Shown here piece after piece: positions 6,421 through 56,674 of a stretch of 64,000 bases of DNA. The position numbers and the translations under genes are program-made. The stretch lies in assembly GCA_000004985.1 (NCBI GenBank), contig GG738874.1. One strand, 5' to 3'. Below the pieces are notes generated by a model that ran no database searches, was not told where the DNA came from, and saw only the letters and a program-made list of their open reading frames with translations. Positions within the stretch are counted from its first letter, which is position 1, and each line of letters begins with the position of its first letter. This DNA comes from Naegleria gruberi. Lineage: Eukaryota.

Positions 6421-7930
6421 TTAATTCTTAGTTTTCTTTTTTGATGAGGATTGTTGGTCTTTAGTGGATGGCTTTTTCCTCTTTTTTGGATCGTTCTCTC
6501 CTTGTACTGCTTGTTGTTGGGAGGAACTTTGTTGAGGTGGAATTGAGGATTGTTGCTGCGGAGGGACTGTAGGTTGATGCTGGTGTGAATGATGATGTGT
6601 TCGTTGGTGTGTATTGTTTGGATTATTTGGAGGAATTGGTTGCTGAGCATTAATGGGAGCCTGATTTTGAACTGGACGATCTGCATGAATGGTTTGATCA
6701 GGATAATTGTATTGTCTTTTTTCAAAACAGCTATTCCAATAATTATTTTTCATTTTCTTTTTAAAATATACTTACTAGGAATAATTCTTATTCTGTTCAA
6801 AGAGTCGATGTTTAAGGGCTTCAGATGCTGTTATTCTTTTTGATGGATCATAACACAATAGTTGTTTCAATAAATCCATCTCTGGTGAGTCAGGTGGTAG
6901 CTCTGTATGATTTTCCAAATTTGGTGTATATTTTGGTATAGTTCCAATCATTTGATAAAAATCCAAATCCTTAATTGTTGGCCAGTCTGCCTCTGTTGGA
7001 GTTCCAAGAACTGAAAATATTTTCTCCAATTGATCTCTTTGAAATTGTTCCTTATTGTTCTCTCTGCCTTCAAATATTGGTTTGGTAGTAATGAGCTCAT
7101 TAAAAATACATCCCAAACTCCAAATATCCACAGCTGGAGTGTAATGCTTAGCTCCAAGTAATAATTCAGGAGCTCTAATACATAGAATATTAATATTAAT
7201 ATCGAGTATCACATGAACACATACCTATACCAAATGGTGACAACAGGTCCATCATCTGCCAATTTCCTGAGTGGATCTTTAAATACACGAGCCAATCCAA
7301 AGTCAGCAATTTTTATAACACCTCTGTCATTACCTTCATCATGTATCAATATGTTTGCAGGTTTCTTTTCAAAATAAGTGTAAACTTCATTAATATAACT
7401 TACCAAATCTCTGTGTATCACCTAATTGAGATTAATAGAATATTCCACATTCTAACTTACCCATGCTTTGTGTAAATAATCCAATCCACATAGCATTTGA
7501 TACAATATTGACCTCACAACTCCTTTATCCAATTTAGGGTGTAGTCGTTTGTTATTCATATCCGTAATTTGTTTCTTATGATAATGCAATAATTTCTCCA
7601 AATCCAATTTACAATAAGGTGTTACCATGTAGAACAACCCATCAGATTTATCCAAAACAATATCTTTAACTTTTAGAATGTTGGGATGATCCAATTCCTT
7701 CAATAACTATAAAATTTAATCCAAATTGCCAACAACTGTTTTAACACTTACATTGATTTCTCTACAGATCGAGAAGGGAATACCTTCACTCTCTCTTGCC
7801 AATTTTAATTTGAATGATTTGATGGCCACTCTGTGACTTGTTGGAATTTCTTTTATATTTGATTAGTAACGAGATCCGATCGGAAATACCTACCTCTGGC
7901 CAATTTTACAATCTAACCCCATCATTAATA
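6421..7930 (-). CDS. cdk8: Cyclin-dependent kinase 8 homologue, multi-exon. The last 45-nt intron (6731-6775) overlaps the apparent stop codon and adds a Q/P/H-rich C-terminal tail.
   Basis: Strong matches to CDK8: KQIEG.P.S.CREI.LL+EL.HPN; an HRDL|KPANIL split by an intron; [32 protein letters not shown]; [34 protein letters not shown]; [24 protein letters not shown]. The start ATG-ATG is at 7930. Exons were joined by hand through GTAAGT/GTATGT donors. Confidence 0.8.
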
Positions 7931-8198
7931 TATTAAACATTTAACTGATTTTACGTACACCATCTGTTAGCAAAAATTATTACAACAATAACATCGGAAC
8001 ACTCTACTTACAAGCTCCTTCACCGATTCTATATCACAATAAAATTATCAATTTAATTATCAAAACACATACTTTCCAACCAACTCATAACGTTGATCCA
8101 ATGTTTTATACTTTTTAAATGTTTTGTCTTTCAACCGACTTGTCATTTTTTTTTGATTAAATGTAACGGAAATTTTGTTGTTTTGACAAAATTGGTTT

Positions 8199-10364
8199 TT
8201 AATATTTGACAACAACCTTTTGTTGGTTGGCTGGGTTGATTGAATCCTTTTGCTGTTTCATTTGTTCGGATTTGAAAGTTGTCTTTAAGGTCTTCTTCAT
8301 TTCTCTCTTTTGTTGTTTTAATTCTTTCATCTTTTGCTTTCTTTCCTTCTTTTCTTCTTTGGTTTCTCCCTTCTTTCTTGCTTCACCAAGGTTTTGAACT
8401 TCTTCAAAATCATCTTCATCAATTTCTTCTTCATTAAGGTCAACCTGTTGTTTACCAACAACGCCAATTGGCATACCTGACTTTTCTGAGAGAACAATCT
8501 TTTTCTTTCTTCCAGGTCTGTCATCAATAATTGAAGGATGGTTATAAATGTTCGAATAGCTTGTTAAAATAGTTTCACAATCCCATCTATTATCTTTTTC
8601 AGGTATCGTTATTACTTCAGTTTCACCCTTTGATTCGTCCTTTTCTTGTCTATCGAGTTGTCTAAGAGCCATCTTTAATCGTTCTTCCTTTGGCAATTCA
8701 TTCAATTTTTCTAAATCTTCTCTACGATAAACCTTCATATCTGATGGGAGATTAGCTTCAATTTCTCTTAATTCTTCATCTGTTATTTCATTACTTCTCT
8801 TGAATTCACCAGCTCCAAACTTTCTTCTTTGTTCTGTAAAGAAATCTTCCAATAAATCATTCATCTTCTTTGGATCGTATTCAGTTCCTTCCCTAAGTTT
8901 TTGATTATCATCGTCGAGTTCACCAATTTGATCGTCAGAATAAGCATTCTTATAGAATGATTCAAAATCTTGATCGAATTGTTTTCTATTTTCTGATACA
9001 GTATATGCATGATCTTCTTTGTCATCCTCTTCTTCTTCGTCACCTTCCTCATCTACATCTTCCCAATCTCCACCATCTTCGCCATCATCATCTTCCCAGT
9101 CTTCATCATCGTCATCTCCTTCTTCATCCACAAAAGTAACCTTCTTTTGTGAAGTTGTTTTTGATGATTTTGTTGTGGCAGGTGTAGCTTTCGATTTTGT
9201 TGTTGGTGCTGATGGTTTTGTGGCAACAGCAGTTTTACCTCCCTTCTTCTTTTTAGCTTCCTCTTCCTCAATTAATAATAATTCCTCACGTGGTAAGAAC
9301 TTCTTTAATAAATCCAATGGAAGTTCTGCATCGTTATCAAATTGATAAACTTTAGCTCCATCCACATCCTCATACATATCATCATCTTCTTCGGCTTGTT
9401 CCTTCAAATCTTGAACAAGTTCTCCAAAGAAATCATCATAATCATCACCATACTTTTCCAAAGGATCATCCTTTTTACCTTCTGTTTCATCCTCTTCTGG
9501 TTTATCTTCTTCTTCCAACAATGTTTCAATTTCTCTATCAAGTTTACCAGAACCATACTTATCTAAACCGTAGGCTTTAAAATCGGTTTTCAATTTAAAT
9601 GGTTCATCCATAGCTTTCTTCTTTTGTTCCTCTTCTTCTTCAAGATCAATTTCTTCAGCATCTGCACCTTTACGAGAAATAAGTTCTTCCAATGTTGGTT
9701 TTTGTTTTTCTGATGATTTTGTTGTTGTTGTTTGAGATGTTACTACAGGTTTAGTTGGCTTCTTAACTGGTTCTTCCTCTTCCCCATCATCATCTTCATA
9801 ATCCTCATCATCATCAACATCTTCATAGTCTCCGTCATCGTCTTCATCAGAAAAAACAGGTTCTTCTGCTTGACTTTCAGAATAAAGAAGTGTGGATGGT
9901 TGTAACGAATTTTGGCCAAAAGCACTCATATAAGTACCACCACCAATATTTCGGATATGTTTTGAATAATCGTAGCCATCATCAGGGAAGAGAAAACCAA
10001 CAGTTTTACGTTGCTTTTCCTTTTTCATGTCTTCGGTTTCTTCATCACCAATTTCATCTTCATCTTCGTCGTCATAGTCACCATCTTCATCATCTTCGTC
10101 ATCTTCATCATTCATATCAATCATTTGTTGAAGACCGTACATAACTTTTGGTTCCTCTTCATCTTCTTCCTCCTCTTCAATAGCATCTCCAAGTGTTTGT
10201 TTAATTTGTTCATATGTTTCCTTTGCTTTTTCACTTTGTTCTTCCAAGTTAGTTGGTACCCAGACTGTGGTTTTACCATCGTTACCTCCTTGGAACAATC
10301 TGAAGGTGATACTATTCTTCTTGTCGATCTTTTTAGACTTTGGTGGCATTTTTTTGAAGTTCAA
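8199..10364 (-). CDS. ltv1: LTV1 ribosome-biogenesis factor homologue
   Basis: 721-aa single exon. The N-terminus is PPKSKKIDKKNSITFRLF (human LTV1 has KKKPFIEKKKAVSFHLVHR). The C-terminal block KDNRWDCETILTSYSNIYNHP matches the LTV1 block KEKWDCESICSTYSNLYNHP. The middle is long and acidic, with a basic tail. Confidence 0.75.
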   Translation of the reverse strand: MNFKKMPPKSKKIDKKNSITFRLFQGGNDGKTTVWVPTNLEEQSEKAKETYEQIKQTLGDAIEEEEEDEEEPKVMYGLQQMIDMNDEDDEDDEDGDYDDEDEDEIGDEETEDMKKEKQRKTVGFLFPDDGYDYSKHIRNIGGGTYMSAFGQNSLQPSTLLYSESQAEEPVFSDEDDDGDYEDVDDDEDYEDDDGEEEEPVKKPTKPVVTSQTTTTKSSEKQKPTLEELISRKGADAEEIDLEEEEEQKKKAMDEPFKLKTDFKAYGLDKYGSGKLDREIETLLEEEDKPEEDETEGKKDDPLEKYGDDYDDFFGELVQDLKEQAEEDDDMYEDVDGAKVYQFDNDAELPLDLLKKFLPREELLLIEEEEAKKKKGGKTAVATKPSAPTTKSKATPATTKSSKTTSQKKVTFVDEEGDDDDEDWEDDDGEDGGDWEDVDEEGDEEEEDDKEDHAYTVSENRKQFDQDFESFYKNAYSDDQIGELDDDNQKLREGTEYDPKKMNDLLEDFFTEQRRKFGAGEFKRSNEITDEELREIEANLPSDMKVYRREDLEKLNELPKEERLKMALRQLDRQEKDESKGETEVITIPEKDNRWDCETILTSYSNIYNHPSIIDDRPGRKKKIVLSEKSGMPIGVVGKQQVDLNEEEIDEDDFEEVQNLGEARKKGETKEEKKERKQKMKELKQQKREMKKTLKTTFKSEQMKQQKDSINPANQQKVVVKY

Positions 10365-40830: not shown

Positions 40831-42632
40831 ATGTTTAGAAATCTAGATAGATTCTCTGTTAAATTAATTGCTTCGATATTATTCTTGTTGACTATCACTT
40901 CATTGGTTGTGAATGTTTCAGCTGATACTACCATCACAGAATTAGCTTCGGATGTAGATGCTGGTTGGACTTTGATAAATGGTGCTCTCGTAATGTGTAA
41001 GTATATATTTCAATTGACCCAAAGTCTAACCTTCCATTAAATTGAATTAATAGTTATGCAGGCTGGGTATGTTAAATATTGGAAATGTAATTTCTGAAAT
41101 AATCTAGTTTCGCATTCCTGGAAGCTGGTGGTGTTCGTTCTAAAAACGTTGCCAATATCTTATTGAAAATTGTCATGTCTGTTGCCATTTCAACAATGGC
41201 TTGGTTCTGTATTGGTTATGGAATTGCTTTTGGTGACCAACTTACAGAAACCAGAAATGGGTTCTTTGGAAATTCTGGATTTTTCATGCTTGGAGGAGGA
41301 GAGTCAAACTCACAATTCTTTTTCCAATGGAGTTTTGCTGCCGTTGCCAGTTCGAGTAAGTGTTTCTTGTGAATTTTGATCTGACATGTGCTGTTCCAAT
41401 TAACATCTGTAGTTGTAAGTGGTGCCGTGGCTGAAAGAATGAATTTATCTGCATTCTTCATGTGTTCATTCTTAATGACTGCCTTCATTTATGCACCTGT
41501 TGTCCATTGGATTTGGTCCTCGACAGGTTGGTTGTCAGGATTCAATAAGGTATTTTTCAGAGTGGGAAATGTTGGTGTGGCTGACTTTGCTGGTGGTGTC
41601 GTTGTTCACGTAAGTATTTAGAATTTTGCTGCTTTCTTAATTGTTATAGTTGACTGGAGGAATTTGTGGCCTCGTTGGAGCTGTAATGGTTGGTCCAAGA
41701 ATTGGAAGATTCGTCAATGGAAAAGCTGTCAAGATCGAAGGACACAACAAGACATTAGTTTTGTTGGGTGGCTTGATTTTGTGGTTTGGTTGGGTAAGTA
41801 TTCTCTTCAGTATTTTGATGGCTTACTCTTTAAGTATGGATTTAACGCTGGATCATCCACTCTTAGTGGTGGTTTATCTAAAATTGCTGGTTTTGCCAGT
41901 ACCAACACAACTATTGCTGGTGCTGCTGGAGCCATGATGTGCATGTTGTGGTCTTGTCTCCAAAGTGGACAATATGACCTTACTGAAAGTTTGAACGGTT
42001 GCTTGGCAGGTTGTGTCGCAATCACACCAATATGTGCCTTTGTTGAGCCATGGGCTGCTGTTTTGATTGGTGCCACAGGTGCTATGGTTTATATTGGTGG
42101 AGCCTGGTTATTAGAGGTTTTGCATGTTGATGATCCAGTGAGCGCCGTTCCTGTTCATGCATTCTGTGGTGCTTGGGGATTGTTCTTGGGTGGATTATTC
42201 TCCACAAAATCAAGGTAAGTAAGCTAGTTCATTAATTCCTTAATATCTTCTAGTATTGCTCTCTATTTTGGTCTTGATTCCTCTTCGACATACTATGGTT
42301 TGTTCTACAGTATGAATTGGGAATTGTTGGGTGTGAATCTTTTTGCTATTGCTGTTGTAACTGTTTGGGTAACCTTCGCTTCAGTAATCATGTTCTTCTT
42401 CATTGATATCACCATTGGTTTGAGAGTTCCTCCACAAGATGAATTAGTTGGTTTGGATCACAAGTATGGTGGTGTTGCCTACACCAATGAAGATATTCAT
42501 CATAGTTATGGTTTTGGAGGTGAGTCTGGAACTGAACATTCCTTAACACGTTCAGCCTACAAGACTGCCCGATCCGTCAAGACTAGCAATACTACCTCTC
42601 AACGTTCAAATGGTTCTTCCTCTCGCAAATAG
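40831..42632 (+). CDS. amt: Ammonium transporter (Amt/MEP family), paralogue 1, in 8 exons including a 13-nt micro-exon at 41054-41066
   Basis: Spliced product ...DAGWTLINGALVMFMQAGFAFLEAGGVRSKNVANILLKIVMSVAISTMAWFCIGYGIAFGD...VSGAVAERMNLSAFFMCSF...LTGGICGLVGAVMVGPRIGRF...HAFCGAWGLFLGGLFS... Donors are GTAAGT/GTATGT. Exon ends were mapped at 40996, 41066, 41355, 41609, 41793 and 42214; the last exon is 42254-42632. Confidence 0.85.
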
Positions 42633-54658: not shown

Positions 54659-56674
54659 TCACTTCTTTGGTATTCCCAAAACCCTTCCTAGCTTCTTGTA
54701 GAAATCTTTGAAATGATCCAAACTGAAAAGAACATAGGTAGCCATCCAAATAACAATTCCAATAACGTAAGATCCAATTCTATGCTTCCAACAAACAGAC
54801 CACATTGATTCCCAATCCACAGAAAATGTAATAAATCCAATCTCAGTCACTGCTTCGTAAATCAAATAAATCATTGCAAATGAAATAACTAAGAGATATT
54901 GGGAGAATTTGAATTGAAGAAAGAAAACATTTTTCTTCTTTTTCAACATGATATAAATCTTGATGGAATAGCTCAATATAATGGCCCAAGAAATTGCAAA
55001 AAACAAAAGGGAGAACCCAATAATTAACACTCTAATGATGCCCCCAGTTACTCTATTAAAGAAAGCAGCTATTACACAGGCCAGGATGAAGATTATTAAA
55101 ATTATGGACACAGCAGAAGCAATTATTCTTCAATAAAGTTAATGCAATAACTCCCAATAACACTTACAATCCATGAATAGAAACTTTCTTATTATTTCCA
55201 GAAAGTTTGAGCAAAACTTCAACAAACAATCCAGCCAGTGGGATATTTGCAACACACAAGAATGCTACTGAGGCAACAATAAGAGTTGGTGTGGGATAAA
55301 CAGCACCTCCTTTTGATTCGGCTGTGTGTTGGATTGCTGAGCCAAGTAAGCAAAGAATTGAGAATTCTAAACTGATACCTGCCAACAATTTCAAATCACA
55401 AATAACTCTCACCAATTCATGGCTCAATTGTTCTTTCATTGAGTTACGATTTGATTCTTTCTTATTACTTCTATTACTGGTGCACAGTTGAGACTGGGTA
55501 TTATCTATTACTACATCTATTTTGACTTGGTTGGGATTTGTATTTTGCTCATTATTGGAAATAGTATTCTTTTCCTTCTCAGATGGTTCTTGTTGTCGTG
55601 GAGTTTTCATCCCCTTTTCAATCGTGTTTAAGGTTCCTCGTGATTTCATGTGATCTTTCCATTTGATTCCTGATCGAAAAATTATTGGAAACAAGCACAA
55701 GATTGGTAAGGTGATAGATTGAATAAAATAGAAAACTATTTCAATGACTTTCAAGGACAAATGGTTTGCTGCTGGAACCCAGAATAATTCCATTGATCCA
55801 GCACATTTATCGCCCATCATTGAACGAAATGTAATCGAATCATTGCTGGAAGTACTATAATCACTACAAAGGCAAAGAAGAGTTCTGTTGTAAAATGTCA
55901 ATTCTGTCTTTCCACAAAATTGAACAATATTCATTCCAAATAAAACGTCCAAGGTTTGTACTCGTTCATATTTTGAGAATTGAGCCATGAAAGGAAGAGA
56001 AACACTCCTAAACTCATAAAAATGTGGATTATTCTCTTTGCAAAACAAAAAGTAATTGAAATAATTAATCCACATATCAAGTGTTATCTTGACATCTTCC
56101 ATTGAAATTTCAACATCAAATCCTGTGTAGTAATATCTCATTGGGTTTGTGTAATTCTTCTCCACCAATAATCCATCCAAATAGGTTGTCAAATATTTCC
56201 TCACCAAAGTTTCATTGCTAAATAATTTAAAACTATTGATTGCCTGCTCATAAAATACAGAATTGCCATTAGTATAATTGCAAAACAGCTTGTCATTGTT
56301 AAATTCCAATAGTCCAGTATATTTGTTAAATGACATAATAACGCCTAAACACATGAGCATTCAATTGAACGGAAATATCTCATACCTTGTATTCTATTGT
56401 AATCCTTATAGAACATGTTTGGCATTGATTCACACCAATAAAAGTCTGGATTCGAAATGACATCTTGAGTGTAATTGAAAGAAGAGATACCATCTGTTGT
56501 TGCGGGTAGTACAGTAAGCATCCTAGTGTGGAGTGGGCAGTTTTGAATTGATACAGTCAAAGCTGTAACCGAAACAAAGCTCATCTCCATTACTATTATC
56601 ATGATGCCAAACAACATGATTGTTATGTTGTTATCATAGCTCTTTAACAAACTGTTGATGCTTGCAGTTGCCAT
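54659..56674 (-). CDS. Membrane protein with a large N-terminal luminal domain followed by about 7 transmembrane helices (GPR107 / lung-7TM-receptor-like topology), in 3 exons
   Basis: Exons are about 56674-56371, 56329-55173 and 55133-54659. The junctions YNRIQ|G... and ...SIHG(L)|IIASAV... restore the reading frame. There is a signal or transmembrane segment at the N-terminus, an N-glycosylation-rich luminal domain, and 7 hydrophobic helices in the C-terminal half. Confidence 0.45.

What the first reader, a model, noticed from the sequence alone, without database searches (positions are those of the whole stretch)
6421..6776. The apparent cdk8 stop codon is split by a 45-nt intron that adds a Q/P/H-rich C-terminal tail
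The kinase domain ORF ends ...EQNKNYS-TAG. The stop overlaps a perfect GTAAGT donor (TCCTA|GTAAGT on the - strand). A 45-nt intron at 6731-6775 ends in AATAG. The next exon, at 6421-6730, is the separately listed 110-aa low-complexity ORF. The join is in frame: ...NKNYSY|[12 protein letters not shown]...[34 protein letters not shown].... Metazoan CDK8 also carries a Q/S/P-rich C-terminal extension, so this tail is probably real. A stop-codon-only model would truncate the protein.
Basis: partly seen in the sequence, partly recalled or inferred. Interest (0 to 1): 0.5.

Follow-up and report, generated by a model that had tools for sequence, protein, structure and literature searches.

The report
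Short intron hides CDK8 kinase tail
The apparent stop codon of this Naegleria gruberi CDK8 kinase gene lies on the start of an ordinary 45-base intron, and splicing adds a conserved 103-residue tail; this is a correct but routine gene-model refinement.

Summary
On the minus strand the kinase ORF ends ...NKNYS-TAG. The TAG overlaps a GTAAGT donor (exon ends at 6776). A 45-nt intron (6775-6731) ends in AATAG. Exon 10 (6730-6421) continues in frame as Y|[12 protein letters not shown]... to a TAA stop.

- The same phase-2 intron, 40-46 nt, sits at the same codon in N. lovaniensis, N. fowleri, an unidentified relative and Willaertia magna.
- The reference annotations of those three named species splice across it.
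- The tail is under purifying selection (dN/dS 0.13-0.16 where measurable). Intron interiors are about 50% identical while flanking exons are 88-92% identical.
- Heterolobosean CDK8 genes without this intron encode the tail contiguously with the kinase.
- A Tyr that is at least 90% conserved across 32 CDK8 homologues lies in exon 10.
- Window residues 338-348 align with human CDK8 343-353.

One correction: the window is Naegleria gruberi, not a dictyostelid.

ORF-only callers do truncate here (P0126, 100% identical, ends ...NKNYS). I retrieved no N. gruberi reference model for this gene. No transcript data were available. Biologically this is ordinary: a conserved GT-AG intron in a conserved kinase.

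The parts
6421..8146 (-). Whole CDK8-like gene: 10 exons and 9 introns of 39-50 nt, encoding 441 aa
   Evidence: Spliced model is in frame. Best matches are CDK8 proteins.
6776..7174 (-). Exon 9: kinase C-lobe, ending ...[14 protein letters not shown] plus the first two bases (TA) of the Tyr339 codon
   Evidence: It is 100% identical to the ORF-style call P0126, which stops at this point.
6775..6777 (-). Apparent in-frame stop TAG: T and A are the last two exon bases, G is the first intron base
   Evidence: The same TA|G occurs in N. lovaniensis, N. fowleri and L007. Willaertia has CA|G followed by TAA.
6731..6775 (-). Intron 9: 45 nt, phase 2, GTAAGT...AATAG, GC 0.16
   Evidence: Position and phase are conserved in 5 genomes. 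The interior is about 50% identical between species while flanking exons reach 88-92%.
6424..6730 (-). Exon 10 coding part: third base of Tyr339 plus residues 340-441, GC 0.40
6655..6730 (-). Conserved segment Y339-P364 ([16 protein letters not shown]...). It contains F341 and the near-invariant Y348-P349, and aligns with human CDK8 residues about 344-356
   Evidence: HMMER alignment to PDB CDK8 chains. Y348 is at least 90% conserved in 32 CDK8 homologues. In the AF2 model of the Willaertia orthologue, the equivalent 346-373 has pLDDT 75-88.
6577..6597 (-). His-rich run HHHSHQH inside the Q/P/H-rich low-complexity region
   Evidence: Present in the aligned tails of all five genomes compared and in the Willaertia paralogue P0003. 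Coordinates.
6427..6486 (-). C-terminal bipartite basic cluster [21 protein letters not shown] nuclear-localisation role is inferred, not shown
   Evidence: Conserved at the C-terminus of the Naegleria, Willaertia and Acrasis-type homologues. A simpler KR-rich cluster is found in most other CDK8 homologues.
6421..6423 (-). True stop codon TAA

Best explanation
This is the last intron of a Naegleria gruberi CDK8 (Mediator kinase) gene. It is a canonical 45-nt GT-AG spliceosomal intron in phase 2 that interrupts a Tyr codon (TA|C). Because the exon ends in TA and the intron starts with G, the unspliced DNA reads TAG, which looks like the end of the kinase ORF. Splicing joins the kinase core (exon 9) to a 103-residue C-terminal region (exon 10). 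That region has three parts. (i) A conserved segment of about 25 residues (CF...Y-x-YP) corresponds to the C-terminal tail segment of human CDK8 (residues 343-353); the review PMC6170502 describes the C-terminal tails of transcriptional CDKs as shaping the ATP-binding site. (ii) A Q/P/H-rich disordered linker with a His run. (iii) A terminal bipartite basic cluster that probably acts as a nuclear localisation signal. Shown here: the sequence anatomy, conservation of intron position and phase, selection on the tail, and homology to the CDK8 tail. Inferred: that the intron is constitutively removed in N. gruberi mRNA, that the first segment packs on the kinase, and that the basic cluster directs nuclear import.
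For: 1. Anatomy: the GTAAGT donor, TAG acceptor and 45-nt length fall inside the range of the gene's eight other introns (39-50 nt, GTAAGT/GTATGT/GTACGT/GTAGGT donors) and of four other junctions in the window (39-51 nt).
2. The same phase-2 intron lies immediately before the conserved CF motif in N. lovaniensis (46 nt, L001 5676-5721), N. fowleri (45 nt, L006 3489-3533 and L008 3364-3408), metagenome relative L007 (40 nt) and Willaertia magna L003 (43 nt).
3. Public reference models splice it. These are N. lovaniensis P0001, annotated with BRAKER1 plus RNA-seq (PMC6125883); N. fowleri, 464 aa, ending at the tail's stop; and W. magna P0002.
4. Relatives without the intron encode the tail contiguously with the kinase: W. 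magna P0003, N. fowleri paralogue P0006 and Acrasis P0005.
5. Purifying selection on the tail: pN 0.29-0.35 against pS 0.73-0.88 for the window versus the three other Naegleria-type genomes; dN/dS 0.13 for N. lovaniensis versus N. fowleri and 0.16 for the window versus L007.
6. For N. lovaniensis versus N. fowleri, the exons are 92% and 88% identical while the intron interior is 50% identical. Intron GC is 0.16 and tail GC is 0.40.
7. Y348 in exon 10 is at least 90% conserved across 32 CDK8 homologues from several eukaryotic groups. The HMMER alignment to human CDK8 runs through the junction.
8. The AF2 model of the Willaertia orthologue gives pLDDT 75-88 for about 28 residues after the junction and below 50 thereafter.
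9. The in-frame ATG at 6753 inside the intron, which makes the tail look like a separate 110-aa ORF, is absent from all four other genomes.
Against: No transcript evidence (EST or RNA-seq junction reads) for N. gruberi was available, so splicing in this species rests on comparative inference. No clear branch-point consensus was identified in the very AT-rich intron. The middle of the tail is low-complexity and aligns poorly, and synonymous sites are saturated in most comparisons with N. gruberi. The structural inference comes from a predicted model of an orthologue (59% identical), because the spliced window protein could not be submitted.
Confidence: 0.93

Rival explanations
1. The TAG is the genuine stop. 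The kinase ends at ...NKNYS (338 aa), and the downstream 110-aa Q/P/H-rich ORF (ATG at 6753) is either a separate small gene or non-coding.
For: The ORF list shows two separate ORFs. An ATG lies in frame at 6753. ORF-style callers produce exactly this truncated product (P0126).
Against: The truncated protein would lack the family-wide F...YP motif, including Y348, which is at least 90% conserved. The in-frame ATG is absent from all four orthologous loci, so the tail cannot be translated on its own there, yet it evolves under purifying selection. The tail is fused to the kinase in intron-less relatives. The chance of such an in-frame continuation is about 1e-3.
Confidence: 0.02
2. The intron is real but regulated. 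Intron retention produces a second, tail-less isoform ending at the TAG, lacking the ATP-site tail segment and the basic cluster, so the splice site acts as a switch for activity or localisation.
For: A stop appears at or one codon after the donor in all five genomes, so retention would give a clean truncation rather than a long aberrant extension.
Against: That stop follows automatically from a phase-2 GTAAGT donor (NNG TAA) and from splitting a conserved Tyr codon (TA|Y), so no selection for it needs to be invoked. The donor matches the strongest consensus seen in this gene. No expression data support retention. Paralogues and orthologues that lost the intron have no such option.
Confidence: 0.05
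3. The locus is a decaying pseudogene copy of CDK8, and the apparent intron is an accidental interruption.
For: No N. gruberi reference protein for this gene was retrieved. A second CDK8 paralogue exists (P0007).
Against: All 10 exons stay in frame with intact catalytic motifs: HRDLKPAN, DFG and APE. The protein is 71-76% identical to the N. lovaniensis orthologue. The tail is under purifying selection. The interruption sits at the same position in five genomes.
Confidence: 0.01

Closest known systems
Naegleria lovaniensis C9374_013333 (P0001) and the N. fowleri 464-aa kinase model between FDP41_013506 and FDP41_013508 (L008 2016-3781)
   Same: These are orthologues, 71-76% identical. They have the same phase-2 intron (46 and 45 nt) splitting a Tyr codon as TA|GTAAGT. 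Their tails share the CF...Y.YPDQ motif, the His run and the KKRKK...KKK(T)K end. The 19-nt micro-exon and the ICREIN|LL intron are also shared.
   Different: N. gruberi has two extra N-terminal introns (17-nt and 5-nt exons instead of one 11-nt exon). It also has introns around VIHRDL and before APELL that N. lovaniensis lacks. The N. lovaniensis model is wrongly fused to an upstream ubiquitin-like gene.
Human CDK8 (UniProt P49336; PDB 3RGF, 4F7S, 8TQ2)
   Same: It is the best-scoring solved relative (E 1.5e-79, against 1e-67 to 1e-68 for CDK1/2/3). Shared features are the SMSACRE-type helix (PFSICRE here), Asp at the T-loop phospho-site position, an N-terminal extension, and a long C-terminal tail rich in Q, S and P. 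Human tail residues 343-353 align with window residues 338-348. The review PMC6170502 describes the transcriptional-CDK C-terminal tails as shaping the ATP site.
   Different: Only about 40% identical. Human CDK8 has DMG where this protein has DFG. The distal tails share composition but not alignable sequence. Whether the intron position is shared with animals was not examined.
   Same: Same CDK8 family. The NAF...IPYP motif and a short KKKR basic patch follow the kinase domain.
   Different: About 43-45% identical, so this is not the source lineage. The tail is only about 25 residues with no Q/P/H-rich region, and the N-terminus is G/N-rich. The window is N. gruberi.
N. gruberi CDK8 paralogue model P0007 (340 aa) and N. 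fowleri FDP41_003847 (P0006, 444 aa)
   Same: These form a second CDK8 clade in Naegleria, 51-55% identical to the window protein. P0006 has the same tail design: CFEHHRYIYPE...KRKKK...KKKKQ.
   Different: N. fowleri P0006 has no intron at this site. The N. gruberi model P0007 stops at ...KPSNK, exactly the equivalent position.

Membership tests
CDK8/CDK19 (Srb10/Ssn3, plant CDKE) Mediator kinase | Protein kinase catalytic core with intact HRDLKPAN, DFG/DMG and APE motifs | tested here: met
   HRDLKPAN at 156-163, DFG at 180-182 and WYRAPE are present. These positions are invariant columns in the 32-sequence alignment.
CDK8/CDK19 (Srb10/Ssn3, plant CDKE) Mediator kinase | Closer to CDK8 than to any other CDK subfamily | tested here: met
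   In the PDB search, all 11 top sequences are CDK8 (261-271 bits), against 234 bits or less for CDK1/2/3. Named database hits are CDK8 or CDKE-1. No explicit phylogeny was built.
CDK8/CDK19 (Srb10/Ssn3, plant CDKE) Mediator kinase | S-x-S-A-C-R-E type alpha-C motif in place of PSTAIRE | tested here: met
   PFSICRE at 63-69 aligns with human SMSACRE.
CDK8/CDK19 (Srb10/Ssn3, plant CDKE) Mediator kinase | No activating T-loop threonine; an acidic residue at the position of CDK2 Thr160 | tested here: met
   D197 lies 7 residues before the WYRAPE Trp, where human CDK8 also has Asp counting back from that Trp (alignment text). The correspondence to CDK2 Thr160 is from my own knowledge. PMC6170502 states that CDK8 is active without activation-loop phosphorylation.
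CDK8/CDK19 (Srb10/Ssn3, plant CDKE) Mediator kinase | N-terminal helix preceding the kinase domain (the cyclin C recognition helix) | tested here: inconclusive
   The AF2 model of the Willaertia orthologue predicts helix 2-19. The window protein has a homologous 24-residue N-terminal extension, but it was not modelled directly.
CDK8/CDK19 (Srb10/Ssn3, plant CDKE) Mediator kinase | [quoted passage not shown] | tested here: met
   This is met only when the 45-nt intron is removed: F341 and Y348-P349 lie in exon 10.
CDK8/CDK19 (Srb10/Ssn3, plant CDKE) Mediator kinase | Binds cyclin C and assembles with Med12/Med13 in the Mediator kinase module | not testable with these tools
   Indirect only: Med13 is reported in N. 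gruberi (PMC3702460).
Canonical U2-type GT-AG spliceosomal intron | GT at the 5' end within a consensus donor, and AG at the 3' end | tested here: met
   GTAAGT at 6775-6770 and AATAG at 6735-6731. GTAAGT is the commonest donor in this gene, in 5 of 9 introns including this one.
Canonical U2-type GT-AG spliceosomal intron | Length typical for the genome | tested here: met
   45 nt, against 39-50 nt for the other 8 introns of the gene and 39-51 nt for four other junctions in the window.
Canonical U2-type GT-AG spliceosomal intron | Removal restores an open frame that encodes conserved protein | tested here: met
Canonical U2-type GT-AG spliceosomal intron | Position and phase conserved in orthologues, with the intron interior diverging faster than the exons | tested here: met
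   Five genomes have a phase-2 intron at the same codon. Intron interiors are about 50% identical against 88-92% for exons in the closest pair.
Canonical U2-type GT-AG spliceosomal intron | Recognisable branch point upstream of the acceptor | not tested
   No Naegleria branch-point model was available. CTGAC is visible in the N. lovaniensis intron, but nothing clear in the N. gruberi intron.
Canonical U2-type GT-AG spliceosomal intron | Spliced junction observed in RNA | not testable with these tools
   No N. gruberi transcript data were accessible. The N. lovaniensis model came from an RNA-seq-guided pipeline, but the junction reads themselves were not seen.

The most novel reading that the evidence does not exclude
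Retention of this intron could be a conserved regulatory switch. In all five genomes, read-through stops at once (TAG at the junction, or TAA one codon later). That would yield a CDK8 lacking the ATP-site tail segment and the terminal basic, NLS-like cluster. Naegleria could then toggle between a nuclear full-length Mediator kinase and a tail-less form, for example during amoeba-to-flagellate differentiation.
Probability: 0.04. Interest if true: 0.35.

Novelty: already known. Interest (0 to 1): 0.15.

Why it matters
The value is practical. Without this splice the N. gruberi CDK8 model loses a family-conserved tail segment and its probable nuclear localisation signal. ORF-based gene calls in public collections make exactly this error (P0126, P0127, P0128). 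I retrieved no N. gruberi reference protein covering exon 9 or the tail, so this CDK8 paralogue may be missing or badly modelled in the reference proteome, perhaps because of its 5- to 19-nt micro-exons. That would affect inventories of Mediator kinase-module components in Discoba. The biology itself (a conserved short GT-AG intron, and a disordered CDK8 tail) is already described in sister species and in other eukaryotes.

Tried and rejected
Five window ORFs are exact matches to N. gruberi NAEGRDRAFT proteins, and dictyostelid Cdk8 proteins are only about 43-45% identical.
- A separate 110-aa gene starting at ATG 6753 is rejected, because that ATG is not conserved in any orthologous locus.
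- Alternative acceptors 20-200 nt downstream give an immediate stop, or frames that are not the conserved one.
- Selection for the junction stop codon is not needed. It follows from the phase-2 GTAAGT donor and the split Tyr codon.
- Looking up the N. gruberi annotation at this locus failed: the genome is not in the gene-position index.
- A literature search for Naegleria CDK8 found only a mention of Med13. A search for Naegleria micro-exons found nothing relevant.

Full report
**Observation.** On the minus strand the sequence reads ...AAT TAT TCC TA|GTAAGTATATTTTAAAAAGAAAATGAAAAATAATTATTGGAATAG|C TGT TTT GAA.... ORF 6775..7212 ends ...EQNKNYS, followed by TAG at 6777-6775. The 110-aa ORF 6421..6753 lies downstream. 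With the donor G at 6775 and the acceptor G at 6731, the intron is 45 nt and in phase 2. The join TA+C restores Tyr339 and continues as [12 protein letters not shown]... for 103 residues to TAA at 6423-6421.

**Gene context.** Using homology to CDK8 as a guide, I assembled a 10-exon, 441-aa model at 8146-6421 on the minus strand. Its nine introns are 39-50 nt long, with GTAAGT, GTATGT, GTACGT or GTAGGT donors and TAG, CAG or AAG acceptors. The proposed intron is typical of this set.

**Chance.** I scanned both strands of the window for GTAAGT donors with at least 100 open codons upstream. Five such donors exist, and each has an AG 37-52 nt downstream that continues in frame for at least 100 codons. 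In 60 simulated windows with the same dinucleotide composition there were none, and the per-combination probability of such a continuation was 1.2e-3. Only the AG at 6731 yields the conserved continuation.

**Source organism.** Five ORFs in the window are exact matches to Naegleria gruberi proteins (NAEGRDRAFT_68692 and others) on a 401,612-bp scaffold. The closest homologues of the kinase are heterolobosean: N. lovaniensis (76%), Willaertia magna, Acrasis kona, N. fowleri and N. gruberi. Dictyostelid Cdk8 proteins are about 43-45% identical and have only a short tail.

**Is it CDK8?** The 11 best solved-structure matches are all human CDK8 (E 1.5e-79, 271 bits). CDK1/2/3 score 234 bits or less. 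CDK8 hallmarks are present:
- PFSICRE, matching human SMSACRE.
- Asp197 at the T-loop position, which I take from my own knowledge to correspond to CDK2 Thr160.
- An N-terminal extension.
- A C-terminal F...YP motif.

**Comparative test of the intron.** I mapped exon-intron structures by exact protein-to-genome threading and by reading the loci directly. A phase-2 intron lies immediately before the conserved CF motif in five genomes:

| Genome | Locus | Intron length | Junction |
|---|---|---|---|
| N. gruberi | window | 45 nt | TA\|GTAAGT |
| N. lovaniensis | L001 | 46 nt | TA\|GTAAGT |
| N. fowleri | L006/L008 (identified through exact neighbours FDP41_013506 and FDP41_013508) | 45 nt | TA\|GTAAGT |
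| Unidentified metagenome relative | L007 | 40 nt | TA\|GTAAGT |
| Willaertia magna | L003 | 43 nt | CA\|GTAAGT |

- The reference annotations of N. lovaniensis, N. fowleri (464 aa, ending at the tail's stop codon) and W. magna all splice this intron. The N. lovaniensis annotation used BRAKER1 with RNA-seq (PMC6125883).
- The W. magna paralogue P0003, the N. fowleri paralogue P0006 and Acrasis P0005 lack the intron. They encode the tail in one continuous ORF with the kinase, which shows directly that the tail belongs to the kinase polypeptide.

**Selection.**
- In codon alignments of the tail, third-position differences exceed first- and second-position differences in every comparison among the four Naegleria-type genomes. 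In the window-Willaertia comparison, first-position differences are about equal to third-position ones.
- pN is 0.29-0.35 and pS is 0.73-0.88 for N. gruberi against the three other Naegleria-type genomes.
- dN/dS is 0.13 for N. lovaniensis versus N. fowleri and 0.16 for N. gruberi versus L007.
- For the closest pair, N. lovaniensis and N. fowleri, the upstream exon is 92% identical, the first 60 nt of the last exon 88%, and the intron interior 50%.
- Intron GC is 0.16 and tail GC is 0.40.
- The in-frame ATG at 6753, which makes the tail look like an independent ORF, is absent from all four other genomes.

**What the tail is.** In a 32-sequence alignment of CDK8 homologues from Discoba, Amoebozoa, plants, algae and fungi, every full-length protein continues past the junction with an N/C-x-F...Y-P-x-R motif. 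Tyr348, in exon 10, is at least 90% conserved.
- In the HMMER alignment, window residues 338-348 align with human CDK8 residues 343-353. The review PMC6170502 highlights that segment of human CDK8. It describes the C-terminal tails of transcriptional CDKs as shaping the ATP-binding site, and notes that inhibitor binding orders the CDK8 tail.
- The distal tail is Q/P/H-rich (40% Q+P+H) with a His run in all five genomes compared.
- The tail ends in a bipartite basic cluster, KKRKK-x10-KKKTK, shared by the Naegleria, Willaertia and Acrasis-type homologues. I infer a nuclear localisation signal. This was not tested.

**The split stop codon is not special.** With a phase-2 GTAAGT donor, read-through always meets TAA (NNG TAA GT). 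Here the conserved Tyr codon split as TA|Y makes the junction itself read TAG. Three of the four other long-ORF junctions in the window are also phase 2. ORF-style gene callers therefore truncate at such sites. P0126 (100% identical), P0127 (N. fowleri) and P0128 (L007) all end exactly at this junction. No N. gruberi NCBI or UniProt model covering exon 9 or the tail was retrieved. The search index is word-based and lists are capped, so absence is not proven.

**Verdict.** The feature is an ordinary, conserved spliceosomal intron in a conserved kinase gene, already modelled correctly in sister species. It is a sound gene-model correction of low novelty. Direct transcript evidence for N. gruberi is the one missing piece.

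Noticed in passing
window 7959-7963 (5 nt), 8012-8028 (17 nt), 7894-7912 (19 nt), 7404-7421 (18 nt), minus strand: The CDK8 gene model needs four micro-exons, including a 5-nt exon (ATGGT, completing the Tyr codon and encoding the final Gly of GEGAYG) flanked by 48- and 46-nt introns. The 19-nt exon is conserved in N. lovaniensis, N. fowleri and L007. Where N. gruberi has 17 + 5 nt, N. lovaniensis and N. fowleri have one 11-nt exon, and L007 has no intron upstream of it. These micro-exons may explain why no reference model was retrieved.
   Followed up: partly
P0007 (N. gruberi CDK8 paralogue, on another scaffold; not in the window): This 340-aa reference model ends ...KPSNK, exactly where the N. 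fowleri paralogue continues ...KPSSNCFEHHRYIYPE... It lacks the family-conserved tail. It is probably truncated by read-through into an AA|GTAAGT donor.
   Followed up: no
L001 4001-4366 (N. lovaniensis): The N. lovaniensis model C9374_013333 fuses an upstream ubiquitin-like ORF to CDK8 through a 145-nt intron. N. gruberi, N. fowleri and L007 each have their own ATG (MTSRLK[DE]K...), and N. fowleri shows a separate 78-aa ubiquitin ORF. This looks like a gene-merging annotation error.
   Followed up: partly
window donors at 42215 (+), 46815 (+), 55167 (-), 20865 (-): Four more junctions have a long ORF, then GTAAGT, then a 39-51-nt intron, then a long in-frame ORF. Three are in phase 2, so their ORFs also appear to end at a stop inside the donor. 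The ORF 55167-56360 is not an exact database protein, which is consistent with a spliced true product.
   Followed up: no
window 7175-7224 (intron 8, minus strand): The ENA-derived ORF call P0126 is 100% identical in exon 9 but reads MILDINILC where the window reads [11 protein letters not shown]. This is a 6-nt indel in an ATTAAT repeat inside intron 8, so it comes from a different N. gruberi strain or a very close relative.
   Followed up: no
window 8147-8198: Only about 50 nt separate the stop of the upstream LTV1-like ORF (8199-10364, same strand) from the CDK8 ATG at 8146. The promoter and 5' UTR space is therefore extremely small.
   Followed up: no
L003 and L004 (Willaertia magna): W. 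magna has two copies, 67% identical to each other and about equally similar to the window protein (59% and 57%). P0002 keeps the tail intron and P0003 has lost it.
   Followed up: partly
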